A DNA stretch of 64,000 nt from Podarcis vaucheri (lineage: Eukaryota), in NCBI GenBank assembly GCA_965113315.1, contig OZ220364.1. One strand, given 5' to 3'. Made by a program: the position numbers. Below are positions 12,001-15,000 of this stretch, in pieces. Each line of letters opens with the position of its first letter. The first letter of the stretch is position 1.

Positions 12001-15000
12001 TCAGTTCTGTTTTTAATAGTGGGGCCTTATCTTACTTAACCACAGCAGCCCCGTTATTCAACATGTGCCAAGTAGTTTCAGAAATGACACCACTCAGCAA
12101 GTCCATTACCGAACTGCCAGGGATAGTAAATGGCTTGCACCTTGAGTTCTGTTTACAGTAAGTCACGTAAAAAGTGCATTTCTTCTATAAATGGTTGAGT
12201 TTATAAGGCCTTTAAACAAGGGACAGCTTACACATTATCAACTTGGCAAGTCAGATACCAGAGCTTACACTTTAATTAGGCATTGCTAGAATAGCCGTTG
12301 CTGCACAGTTTGCATTCCAGAGGCTAAGATACACAAAGAGCCCTCTCACACATTTTATAGGAATCTTCTTGATAAAGTCACAGTGAATATTGTGCTATAA
12401 ATCCTGCTGAAAGGGGACCCTGGGCCTTTTCCTGTCCGTGCAGTGGAATTTGGGTTTTAACTTATTTGCTAGTTTGCCTTCATTATGAATTTCTAATGGC
12501 CTGCTCAGTTCAAGGTTTTCTGCATAAGAATTTAAGAGGGTCTGCAGCTATTACTGTGAACCTGAAGATGGTGATAGGCCAGCCTTTGGCTTCAAAAGTT
12601 AGTGTGCTATATGCAGGCACTATTAGAACCTAAATGGGGAAAGGGTAGCAGAGGAAGCAAAACTATTGGGAAGCAGAAAGAAGCATTCAAACCCAAAACA
12701 ATAATGTATTGGTATTTTTATATATTTAAAACAGATGATGGGCAGCTTTGAATATTATAATGTTACAGTAACAAGTGGGGCCTGCTATACAGTGGTACCT
12801 CAGGTTACATATGCTTCAGGTTACAGACGCCGCTAACCCAGAAATAGTGCTTCAGGTTAAGAACTTTGCTTCAGGCTGAGAACAGAAATCATGCTCTGGC
12901 GGCGCTGCGGCAGCGGGAGGCCCCATTAGCTAAAGTGGTGCTTCAGGTTAAGAACAGTGTCGGGTTAAGAACGGACCTCCCGAACGAATTAAGTACTTGA
13001 CCCAAGGTACCACTGTACACTGTTTCTTGGTGAAGTGCTTCTGTTCCTTGTTTCAGCCAAGCAGCTATGATTTTTCTATTCACCCTTTTTCTCTCTCCAG
13101 CAGTCAAGTCAGCATTTTTTACTTCCAAAGTACACTCAGTTACCATCGGCCTGTTTTAGAGATCTTCTTCCTCACCCCACTTTCGGGGAGTTTTTTTTTT
13201 TTCATTTAAAAAATAAACCCCACAATGCAAGTCTTGGGCTTTCCTGCAAGTCTTGGGCTTTCCATTGTAATTTCCCTCATGTGTATGGATGGTACCATTT
13301 TGGCCACATAAGGATGGGCAGTCAGAGAATGCATTTACAATTAGTATATGTAGGATGTTAGGTTAGTAATAATGGACGAAGATAAGGCTGGCATATGCAT
13401 GCTGCCAGAGAATATCCTTGGCAGCAGAAAGCAGCATGCAGCCTGGGGCCTGAGAGGGAAGAGAATTGGCCTTTGGCGGACTCCCCCACCCCACCCCAAA
13501 GAATCCTTTTGGCAGGGAGGGGAAACTTCCTTTTGACACAAAAGGTATGAAGTAAAATTGACCTTCTGAGAAACTTCAGTACCATTTGCACTCAGATCTT
13601 ATTTCAATACAGTAATGCAATCAAACAAGGAGAAGGGGACGACCGAGGATGAGATGGTTGGACAGTGTTCTCGAAGCTACGAACATAAGTTTGACTAATC
13701 TGCGGGAGGCAGTGGAAGACAGGAGTGCCTGGCGTGCTCTGGTCCATGGGGTCACGAAGAGTCGGACACAACTAAACGACTAAACAACAACAATGCAATC
13801 AAATTCAGCTCTAAGTAAAATGGGTTGTGATGGTGTCTTTTAGCATTGGATCATACTTTCAGCCAACACTGAAATAAAGTAGAAGCAGCACTTTCCTTCT
13901 ACCATACAGATGCAATAGCTCTGTATTTTGACTACATAAGGATTGCACACTTGGAGAATGGTTTGCTCTGAGCTGCACTCAGACCTAGTTCATATGATTC
14001 TTCCCTTGTTTTTTCAAGGAGGAGAATCACACAATTGGCAGTTTGCCCAGGGGGTTGGTTCGCTGCATAGCATCTCTACTGGAGAGGGAAGGTCCTCAGG
14101 CTACTCTTCCCACCACACTTTCACCTCACACATGTGTGAACTGGGGTTTCCTTATACAGTAGTATACGTTCTAGTGATAGCTTTTTTGGGGGGTGTAGGA
14201 TTGAAAGCTAACTTTGGTGTACAGATACAGATGGGTAGCCGTGTTGGTCTGCCATAGTCCAAATAAAAAAATTCCTTCCTGTAGCACCTTAAAGACCAAC
14301 TAAGTTAGTTCTTGGTATAAGCTTTCGTGTGCATGCACACTTCTTCAGATACCTTCCTTAAAGACAAACTAAGTTAGTTCTTGGTATAAGCTTTCGTGTG
14401 CATGCACACTTCTTCAGATACCTTCAGACATATCTGAAGAAGTGTGCATGCACACGAAAGCTTATACCAAGAACTAACTTAGTTGGTCTTTAAGGTGCTA
14501 CAGGAAGGAATTTTTTTATTTGGACTTTGGTGTACAGATTAGAAGAAGTTCTTTCTGTTCCATCATTCCAATCCTTAAATTTCTTTGTAGTTCCCTGCCT
14601 TATGCTCACTCACTATCCTAATAAAAAAAAATTCATGAAAATGTATTGATCCAGCACTGAATTATGTAAGCTTGAAAAATAGACCGGTCTGTTTTCAGAA
14701 AACAAAGTGACTACTTTAAACCTAGCTGATTTGTTTATAGTGCTGCTCAAGTCACTAATTCTGAGCAGAGGAGATGGAACATCTGCAACTCACATTGGTT
14801 AGGATCTGGGAAAGCTAATTGCCTCCAATTTGGTTAAAATACAGTGTCAATTACATTTTCAAACAACAGCTTCTATACTCTCTGTTGACAGCAAAGCTGG
14901 GGGGCCATCCATTGAGCTATTTCCTTGCTTCAAAAAAAGTAAATTCACACAGCTATGTGATATTTTACCGAAGCCAATATTTATTCCTTTGCAAATAAGT

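What the first reader, a model, noticed from the sequence alone, without database searches (positions are those of the whole stretch)
14211..14539. Very young Penelope-like insertion forming a perfect 96-bp palindrome inside COX10 pre-mRNA
Seen: arms 14256-14351 and 14431-14526 are exact reverse complements. The inner duplicate (14356-14420) can alternatively pair with 14431-14495 across only a 10-nt loop, giving two competing long hairpins. The 16-bp TSD is intact. Zero arm divergence implies a recent, possibly polymorphic insertion. Inference: the hairpin would sequester the sense hammerhead and protect COX10 pre-mRNA from cleavage, while creating a substrate for ADAR or Drosha/Dicer and a cruciform-prone DNA site.
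Basis: partly seen in the sequence, partly recalled or inferred. Interest (0 to 1): 0.65.

Follow-up and report, generated by a model that had tools for sequence, protein, structure and literature searches.

The report
Penelope-type retroelement palindrome in lizard COX10 intron
A 297-base, non-coding insertion of the Penelope-like retroelement type, born as a head-to-head inverted repeat, sits in an intron of a lizard's COX10 gene; it is a tidy but ordinary example of how these elements insert.

Summary
Arms 14256-14351 and 14431-14526 are exact reverse complements (96 nt). A 69-nt tandem unit supplies a second, 64/65 pairing partner across a 10-nt loop. A 16/16 direct repeat flanks everything.

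The window comes from a lacertid lizard, not a human. The element lies in the 23-kb intron between COX10 exons 3015-3085 and 26124-26356, with the gene on the + strand.

The insert carries three minimal hammerhead motifs, the only three in the window, against none in 100 shuffles. It also shows the published Penelope-like insertion signature: 5' truncation, partial tandem, an adjacent inverted 5'-truncated copy, a 29-nt 'tail' at one end only, and a long target-site duplication.

The palindrome is therefore best read as a birth feature of one insertion event, not as an adaptation.

The 'protective hairpin' idea is unnecessary. The only sense-strand hammerhead is single, keeps 3 of 5 helix I pairs, and belongs to a class that needs a dimer.

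Zero arm divergence bounds the age only to roughly 10-16 My or less. Polymorphism, RNA editing, small RNAs and homology to a curated Penelope consensus could not be checked.

Verdict: ordinary, a new member of a known kind.

The parts
14211..14226 (.). Left target-site duplication (16 nt)
   Evidence: Identical to 14524-14539.
14227..14255 (-). 29-nt 'tail': a 3' extension present only on the minus-strand copy, 62% A+C in sense. Its first 6 nt on + (14227-14232) repeat the last 6 nt of the duplication.
   Evidence: The left arm continues 29 nt beyond the point where the right arm ends. It matches the 30-40 bp one-sided tail described for PLEs (PMC8557442 passages; PMC11167929 main text).
14256..14286 (-). 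3' body of the minus-strand copy (31 nt), outer part of the left arm
   Evidence: Exact reverse complement of 14496-14526.
14287..14355 (-). 69-nt unit A with a complete minimal hammerhead on the minus strand (core 14348 to 14319)
   Evidence: Tandem family D1. Descriptor hit with helix I of 5 bp.
14356..14424 (-). 69-nt unit B, a tandem copy with 1 mismatch (14366), with a complete minimal hammerhead on the minus strand (core 14417 to 14388)
   Evidence: In the minus-strand fold this unit forms helix I and helix II in the apical region.
14425..14430 (.). 6-nt junction filler between the two 5'-truncated copies
   Evidence: Belongs to neither arm.
14431..14495 (+). Plus-strand unit, 5'-truncated (65 of 69 nt), with the only sense-strand hammerhead (core 14434-14463, predicted cut after 14463, helix I only 3 bp)
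14496..14526 (+). 3' body of the plus-strand copy, without a tail. Its last 3 nt overlap the right duplication.
14524..14539 (.). Right target-site duplication (16 nt)
3015..3085 (+). COX10 exon upstream of the host intron (aa 181-204 of the Lacerta agilis protein)
   Evidence: tblastn 24/24 identical. AG acceptor and GT donor present.
26124..26356 (+). COX10 exon downstream of the host intron
   Evidence: Pfam UbiA E 1.1e-20. TIGR01473 heme o synthase E 1e-24. Splice sites. tblastn.
37906..38312 (+). Last COX10 coding exon, including the stop codon
   Evidence: Pfam UbiA. TIGR01473 E 5.1e-30. 98% identical to Lacerta agilis COX10. Acceptor site.

Best explanation
This is one short, non-coding insertion of the Penelope-like element (PLE) type: 297 bp between 16-bp target-site duplications. 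It lies in the 23-kb intron of COX10 in a lacertid lizard.

The palindrome was made at insertion. The element's endonuclease nicked the top and bottom strands 16 bp apart. Each 3' end then primed reverse transcription of the same 3'-terminal, hammerhead-bearing template region. One strand started at the outer start site, giving the minus-strand copy with its 29-nt tail. The other started at the inner start site, giving the plus-strand copy without a tail. Both cDNAs stopped early (5' truncation) and were joined head to head across a 6-nt filler. The minus-strand copy also holds a 69-nt tandem duplication of the hammerhead unit.

Shown:
- the anatomy of the insert;
- the hammerhead motif features;
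- the intronic position and host gene;
- the fold energies.

Inferred:
- the order of events and the use of two start sites;
- production by PLE reverse transcriptase/endonuclease supplied in trans.

The likely consequence is neutrality. In the COX10 pre-mRNA the insert folds into a 96-bp perfect duplex, a plausible ADAR substrate. Its one sense hammerhead is not expected to cut with or without the hairpin.
For: Anatomy:
- Exact 96-nt inverted arms with their 3' ends pointing outward, a 69-nt tandem unit, a 6-nt central filler and a 16/16 duplication.
- One arm runs 29 nt further than the other.

Hammerhead:
- My own descriptor asked for: core CTGANGA; an optional extra nt before helix II; helix II of at least 4 bp closed by G-C; GAAA; a pairable 15.2/16.2; T16.1; H17.
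- It gave 3 hits in the 64-kb window on both strands. All 3 lie in the insert, and each of 100 shuffles gave 0.
- The extra nt, G10.1-C11.1, the palindromic 15.2-16.2, a long helix II and a 5-bp helix I are the features listed for PLE minimal hammerheads in PMC4209133 (whole text parts 1-2 read).

Literature match:
- PMC8557442 (passages): PLE insertions are highly 5'-truncated and form partial tandems. They often carry an inverted 5'-truncated copy at the 5' end, have a 30-40 bp tail often at one end only, and have duplications of variable length.
- PMC11167929 (main text): the Anolis PLE protein nicks and extends both strands. Reverse transcription starts at two adjacent internal sites, and the tail is the sequence between them.
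- In that element the hammerhead cut site is at +26 and initiation at +111-118, so 85-92 nt apart. Here the cut site to the tailed end is 92 nt, and 63 nt to the untailed end.

Other support:
- Non-coding: all three sense frames are closed.
- Host: exons match heme o synthase and Lacerta agilis COX10 at 98-100%.
- Penelope repeats are annotated in another lacertid (PMC9498476, one passage).
Against: - No homology test against a curated PLE consensus was possible. No Repbase/Dfam library and no eukaryotic genome collection were on hand.
- The insert has no other copy in the window.
- No reverse transcriptase or GIY-YIG domain was found among 669 of 669 scanned ORFs of 45 aa or more. The PLE link therefore rests on motif and architecture alone.
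- Rfam gave no hammerhead family even at E up to 10.
- My descriptor was written after I had seen the sequence.
- In Anolis PAc the ORF starts in helix II. Here that region is closed in all frames, so this is a different family or a non-autonomous derivative.
- The 6-nt repeat of the duplication's end at 14227-14232 is unexplained.
- The tail is 29 nt, just under the published 30-40.
- Dual-strand priming has been shown only in vitro, and only for one Anolis element.
Confidence: 0.78

Rival explanations
1. It is a non-LTR retrozyme: a non-autonomous tandem hammerhead repeat with a 69-nt monomer that spreads via PLE enzymes. It is not a truncated end of an autonomous PLE. This is a rival on classification only; the insertion mechanism would be the same.
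For: - Two head-to-tail 69-nt units each hold a complete type I minimal hammerhead on the minus strand.
- The sequence is non-coding in all frames.
- Reported vertebrate retrozyme consensus lengths run from 51 to 972 bp, with a mean of 176 bp in Reptilia. They are related to PLE pLTRs (bioRxiv 10.64898/2026.07.22.740005, abstract and Results part 1).
Against: - There are only two units, and a one-off template switch at the shared junction motif could equally have made the duplication.
- The right arm carries one unit only.
- That preprint reports depletion of retrozymes from introns in Xenopus.
- No circular RNA or family data were available.
Confidence: 0.3
2. It is a MITE or other DNA-transposon hairpin unrelated to Penelope.
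For: It has long inverted repeats flanked by a direct duplication.
Against: - The inverted repeat does not reach the left end; 29 extra nt lie there.
- At 16 bp, the duplication is longer than I recall for cut-and-paste families (2-11 bp, from memory).
- The arms carry an internal tandem and three hammerhead motifs.
- No transposase domain was found in 669 of 669 ORFs scanned.
Confidence: 0.03
3. The perfect palindrome is an assembly artefact or a later fold-back duplication of a simple insertion.
For: PLE tandem and inverted structures often cause assembly problems (PMC8557442 passage). Exact identity of the arms is what an artefact would give.
Against: - The flanking repeats are direct, not inverted.
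- The right arm abuts the duplication without the tail.
- A distinct 6-nt filler and unequal arm contents (two units against one) make an asymmetric structure. This fits a real single event rather than a mirror-image artefact.
Confidence: 0.05
4. The hairpin is a functional, selected RNA: a microRNA precursor or a regulator of COX10 processing, including the reader's 'hammerhead-sequestering' role.
For: The hairpin is very stable. Rfam microRNA models align to it.
Against: - All 24 Rfam matches are below their gathering scores. They fit any long perfect hairpin, and most appear on both strands.
- The sense hammerhead is single and has a truncated helix I.
- Near-zero divergence gives no conservation signal.
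- The structure is fully explained by the insertion mechanism.
Confidence: 0.03

Closest known systems
Penelope-like elements, Penelope/Poseidon-type insertions (for example PAc of Anolis carolinensis; PMC11167929, PMC8557442)
   Same: - A minimal type I hammerhead.
- 5' truncation, a partial tandem and an adjacent inverted 5'-truncated copy.
- A one-sided tail of about 30 nt and a long duplication.
- Similar spacing from the hammerhead cut site to the tailed end: 92 nt here, 85-92 nt in PAc.
   Different: - There is no RT-EN ORF here, and all frames downstream of the hammerhead are closed, whereas the PAc ORF starts in helix II.
- The whole insert is only 297 bp.
- Sequence homology could not be tested.
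PLE minimal hammerheads (Cervera and de la Pena 2014, PMC4209133)
   Same: - Core CTGANGA, then GAAA, then TH.
- An extra nt between positions 9 and 10.1, and G10.1-C11.1.
- Palindromic 15.2-16.2 with no helix III.
- A long helix II and a helix I of 5 bp.
- Copies close together on opposite strands are reported there as well.
   Different: Activity is untested here. The plus-strand copy has lost part of helix I.
Animal non-LTR retrozymes (PMC7761336; bioRxiv 10.64898/2026.07.22.740005)
   Same: Tandem units each carrying a type I hammerhead; non-coding; co-occurrence with PLEs.
   Different: - Only two units, of 69 nt each, whereas PMC7761336 describes repeats of about 150-300 bp in animals.
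- The units are embedded in an inverted structure with a duplication.
- No circular RNA evidence.
Conserved intronic hammerheads of amniotes (cited in PMC7761336 as refs 66 and 68; original papers not read)
   Same: A hammerhead motif in the sense strand of an intron of a protein-coding gene.
   Different: Those are reported as conserved. From memory, not checked here, they are complete monomeric ribozymes. This one is recent, single, minimal, truncated and buried in a duplex.
L1 twin priming inversions (recalled, no paper read)
   Same: The second nicked strand also primes reverse transcription, giving an inverted 5' part.
   Different: As I recall it, twin priming inverts a different segment of one RNA and does not duplicate it. 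Here both arms copy the same 3'-terminal region, giving a palindrome.

Membership tests
Autonomous Penelope-like element | Single ORF with a telomerase-like reverse transcriptase and a GIY-YIG endonuclease | tested here: not met
   All sense frames of the insert are closed. No RT or GIY-YIG Pfam family was found in 669 of 669 stop-to-stop ORFs of 45 aa or more across the window. I therefore file it as a PLE-type or PLE-mobilised non-coding insertion, not as an autonomous PLE.
PLE-type insertion (truncated or non-autonomous) | Minimal hammerhead in the repeat, in sense orientation | tested here: met
   3 descriptor hits, all inside the insert, and 0 in 100 shuffles. The features match those listed in PMC4209133.
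PLE-type insertion (truncated or non-autonomous) | Partial tandem plus an inverted 5'-truncated copy adjacent at the 5' end | tested here: met
   69-nt tandem and 96-nt exact inverted arms, with both 5' ends at the centre. Described in PMC8557442.
PLE-type insertion (truncated or non-autonomous) | 30-40 bp tail at one end only | tested here: met
   A 29-nt extension on the minus-strand copy only, one nt short of the quoted range.
PLE-type insertion (truncated or non-autonomous) | Target-site duplication of variable, often long, size | tested here: met
   16/16 identical.
PLE-type insertion (truncated or non-autonomous) | Sequence homology to a curated PLE consensus or pLTR | not testable with these tools
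Hammerhead ribozyme (Rfam families) | Match to an Rfam hammerhead covariance model | tested here: not met
   No hammerhead family appears among the 24 matches at E up to 10 over 14100-14650, nor at gathering score over the window. From memory, the Rfam hammerhead models include a helix III, which this motif lacks; I did not check this.
Hammerhead ribozyme (catalytic core) | Conserved core nucleotides and helices I and II | tested here: met
   Core, G10.1-C11.1, a 5-bp helix II with a 4-nt loop, and a 5-bp helix I on the two minus-strand copies. Helix I is only 3 bp on the plus copy.
Hammerhead ribozyme (catalytic core) | Self-cleavage | not testable with these tools
   Needs in vitro transcription of monomer and dimer constructs.
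Non-LTR retrozyme | Head-to-tail repeats each bounded by a type I hammerhead | tested here: met
   Two 69-nt units on the minus strand.
Non-LTR retrozyme | Circular RNA of unit length | not testable with these tools
   No transcriptome data were available.
MITE / DNA transposon | Terminal inverted repeats reaching both ends, with a short fixed duplication | tested here: not met
   The left end has 29 unmatched nt, and the duplication is 16 bp.
microRNA precursor families | Rfam gathering score reached | tested here: not met
   The best match is MIR1222 at 63.9 bits against a gathering score of 90. All others are also below threshold.
COX10 / heme o synthase (host gene) | Match to the heme o synthase equivalog and orthology to a named COX10 | tested here: met
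   TIGR01473 aligns to two exons separately, at positions 83-157 and 159-280 of 281. Each exon alone scores below the full-length cut-off. Identity to Lacerta agilis COX10 is 98% for the last exon and 24/24 for the exon at 3015-3085.

The most novel reading that the evidence does not exclude
This single copy is a genomic footprint of a dimeric PLE insertion complex. Both DNA strands were nicked at the same local motif (T^TAG under the maximal 16-bp reading). Each strand primed from a different one of the two reverse-transcription start sites, so the tailed and untailed ends arose in one event. If so, it would carry the in vitro two-start-site, both-strand model of the Anolis element into a natural insertion in a different lizard family. 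It would also leave a 96-bp perfect double-stranded RNA in the pre-mRNA of an essential respiratory-chain assembly gene, where it could be edited or sensed.
Probability: 0.35. Interest if true: 0.4.

Novelty: new member of a known kind. Interest (0 to 1): 0.25.

Why it matters
Penelope-like elements are poorly annotated, and their tandem and inverted insertions confuse assemblers and repeat maskers. A clean, undiverged copy with both junctions intact is useful in three ways:
- as a worked example of the insertion product;
- as a candidate presence/absence marker in lacertids;
- as a natural test of whether a long perfect intronic duplex is edited or tolerated in a housekeeping gene.

Nothing here suggests a new kind of system or an effect on COX10.

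Tried and rejected
- **Six-frame translation:** I scanned stop-to-stop ORFs instead.
- **First descriptor script:** timed out. I re-ran it with 100 shuffles.
- **Rfam:** No hammerhead family was found. The microRNA, snoRNA and RUF4 matches are all sub-threshold, and I rejected them as generic hairpin matches.
- **Other copies in the window:** None. Searches allowed up to 3 mismatches. One search used blastn with word size 7; its best outside match was 13 nt at E 0.64.
- **Weak Pfam hits:** ARM_At3g06530, DUF22 and Pox_VERT_large fall below their curated cut-offs, and I rejected them as chance.
- **Literature on lacertid PLE activity or substitution rates:** led to one passage in PMC9498476. 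led to PMC6050309, whose passages held nothing usable.
- **Interpretations considered and rejected:** a MITE, an assembly fold-back, two nested insertions (there is only one duplication pair), and a selected microRNA or regulatory hairpin.
- **Not attempted:**
  - I did not scan genome contigs, which holds bacteria and archaea only; a result there would say nothing about a lizard repeat.
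Full report
**1. Observation**

- A script check shows that the reverse complement of 14256-14351 equals 14431-14526 over all 96 nt. One more base on either side breaks the match.
- A 69-nt unit is repeated head to tail at 14287-14355 and 14356-14424, with one difference (14297 C, 14366 A). The inner unit therefore pairs with 14431-14495 at 64 of 65 positions across a 10-nt gap.
- The 16-mer ACTTTGGTGTACAGAT is identical at 14211-14226 and 14524-14539. Its first three bases on the right side double as the last three of the right arm, so that boundary is ambiguous by 3 nt.

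The structure is far beyond chance.
- RNA folds: -199.1 kcal/mol on the + strand (z -23.2) and -198.2 on the - strand (z -22.7). DNA fold: -127.1 (z -25.1). In each case 0 of 100 shuffles did as well.
- The inner hairpin is a real but weaker competitor. It reaches -127.0 to -142.0 kcal/mol.
- It is the minimum only while the right arm is partly transcribed (transcript ending at 14470). From 14495 onward the outer register wins.

**2. Where it is**

Stop-to-stop ORFs of 45 aa or more were scanned against Pfam, 669 in all (for the list).
- Two ORFs on the + strand match the UbiA family above its cut-off: 26083-26388 and 37881-38309.
- Taken separately, the two exons align to adjacent parts of the heme o synthase equivalog TIGR01473, at positions 83-157 and 159-280 of 281.
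- A search with the last exon alone found COX10 of Lacerta agilis as the best hit (98% identity), followed by other lizards.
- tblastn of that named protein against the window placed aa 181-204 at 3012-3083 (24/24), aa 205-282 at the 26.1-kb exon, and aa 282-417 at the last exon with 133/136 identical.
- Splice signals and split codons fit exons 3015-3085, 26124-26356 and 37906-38312.

The insert therefore lies in the 23-kb intron 3086-26123 of COX10, which is transcribed from the + strand.

The window is from a lacertid lizard, and I do not take it for human. I searched the gene model exon by exon and left out the joined (spliced) step.

**3. What it is**

Read in the sense of the minus-strand copies, each 69-nt unit holds a minimal type I hammerhead. 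On the + strand copy the parts are:
- CTGAAGA at 14434-14440;
- one extra base;
- the 14-nt palindrome 14442-14455, forming helix II (5 bp plus a 4-nt loop);
- GAAA at 14456-14459;
- GCTT at 14460-14463, with the predicted cut after 14463.

A descriptor of my own, written after I had seen the sequence, found three hits in the window. All three lie in the insert, and there were none in 100 shuffles.

These are the traits listed for PLE hammerheads by Cervera and de la Pena (PMC4209133, parts 1-2 of the text read):
- an extra base between positions 9 and 10.1;
- the G10.1-C11.1 pair;
- a palindromic 15.2-16.2 with no helix III;
- a long helix II;
- a 5-bp helix I.

That paper also reports such motifs in turtle and snakes, none in mammals, and pairs of motifs close together on opposite strands.

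Rfam has no match to any hammerhead model here. From memory, those models include a helix III, which this motif lacks; I did not check this.

The architecture matches the published PLE insertion signature (PMC8557442, passages):
- strong 5' truncation;
- partial tandems;
- an inverted 5'-truncated copy next to the 5' end;
- a 30-40 bp tail, often at one end only;
- duplications of variable length.

Here both copies have their 3' ends outward and their truncated 5' ends at the centre, joined by 6 nt (14425-14430). The minus-strand copy runs 29 nt further (14227-14255) than the plus-strand copy.

The insert is non-coding in all sense frames. No RT or GIY-YIG domain is present in any of the 669 ORFs. 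I therefore file it as a PLE-type, PLE-mobilised insertion, not as an autonomous PLE.

No other copy lies in the window. No repeat library or eukaryotic genome collection was available, so sequence homology to a named PLE family stayed unchecked. The following could bear on this but were closed:
- the supplementary alignments of PMC4209133;
- the consensus file of PMC11167929;
- the tables of the 2026 preprint.

**4. How it most likely arose**

Frangieh et al. (PMC11167929, main text read) report three things for the Anolis element PAc:
- the protein nicks and extends both DNA strands;
- reverse transcription starts at two adjacent internal sites in an AC-rich stem-loop;
- the tail is the sequence between those two sites.

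In PAc the hammerhead cut site is at +26 and initiation at +111-118, so the two are 85-92 nt apart. Here the distance from the cut site is 92 nt to the tailed end and 63 nt to the untailed end, and the tail is 62% A+C.

The simplest reading is a single event:
1. Two nicks were made 16 bp apart.
2. Each 3' end primed a copy of the same template region, one from each start site.
3. Both copies were truncated and joined head to head.

Under the maximal 16-bp reading, both inferred nick sites share the context T^TAG. The 3-nt ambiguity at the right junction weakens this point.

The tandem 69-nt unit could come from a tandem (retrozyme-like) template or from a template switch at the shared junction motif. 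I cannot tell which.

The 6-nt repeat of the duplication's end at 14227-14232 is unexplained.

**5. Consequences**

The + strand pre-mRNA carries one hammerhead only. Its helix I is reduced to 3 pairs by the truncation at 14431, and it has no partner for the dimeric helix III.
- Single minimal hammerheads gave no detectable cleavage in vitro (PMC4209133).
- The PAc hammerhead needed its protein and was not required for insertion (PMC11167929).

The hairpin does bury this motif, but there is little to protect against. The two complete tandem hammerheads are on the antisense strand.

A 96-bp perfect duplex in an intron is, from general knowledge, a good ADAR substrate and a poor Drosha substrate. 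None of this was testable here.

For DNA, the 10-nt-spaced 64/65 pair would be the more cruciform-prone of the two. This is inference only.

**6. Age**

Zero differences over 192 compared arm sites bound per-site divergence to 1.56% or less. Over all 297 duplicated or multi-copy sites the bound is:
- 1.0% or less, if the one tandem mismatch arose at insertion;
- 1.6% or less, if it arose later.

At a recalled, order-of-magnitude rate of 1e-9 per site per year, this means up to roughly 10-16 million years. 'Recent' is fair. 'Very young' and 'polymorphic' are not shown.

**7. Verdict**

This is an ordinary though unusually clean product of PLE-type insertion: a new member of a known kind, of low to moderate interest.

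Noticed in passing
window 3015-3085, 26124-26356, 37906-38312 (+): Three consecutive COX10 (heme o synthase) coding exons, including the last one with its stop codon. They are 98-100% identical to Lacerta agilis COX10, and the introns between them are about 23 kb and 11.5 kb.
   Followed up: yes
window 46575-46648 (-): A tRNA-Lys(CTT)-like sequence (Rfam tRNA 40.1 bits; ARAGORN). It could be a tRNA gene or the head of a tRNA-derived SINE.
   Followed up: partly
window 44615-44782: A run of 168 N, left as it is.
   Followed up: no
window 59245-59997 (+), within GC-rich 56001-60000: A 251-aa open frame whose end matches the start of the Sulfotransfer_1 domain (23.8 bits, cut-off 22, profile 2-52 of 255). 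It lies in the most GC-rich part of the window (0.577). It is probably the first exon of a neighbouring sulfotransferase gene. From memory, this is the kind of gene that neighbours COX10 in mammals; I did not check this.
   Followed up: partly
window 14227-14232 and 14221-14226: The last 6 nt of the left target-site duplication are repeated as the first 6 nt of the insert. No explanation was found.
   Followed up: partly
window 14205-14216 and 14221-14226 with 14540-14545: Under the maximal 16-bp duplication, the inferred nick sites on both strands share the context T^TAG. The 56-bp neighbourhood is 62.5% A+T, against 57.1% for the window.
   Followed up: partly
window 14340-14348, 14409-14417, 14493 (+): There are two pyrimidine-rich acceptor-like motifs and one donor-like motif on the COX10 sense strand inside the insert. 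In principle they could define a cryptic exon if the hairpin opened. They were not scored.
   Followed up: no
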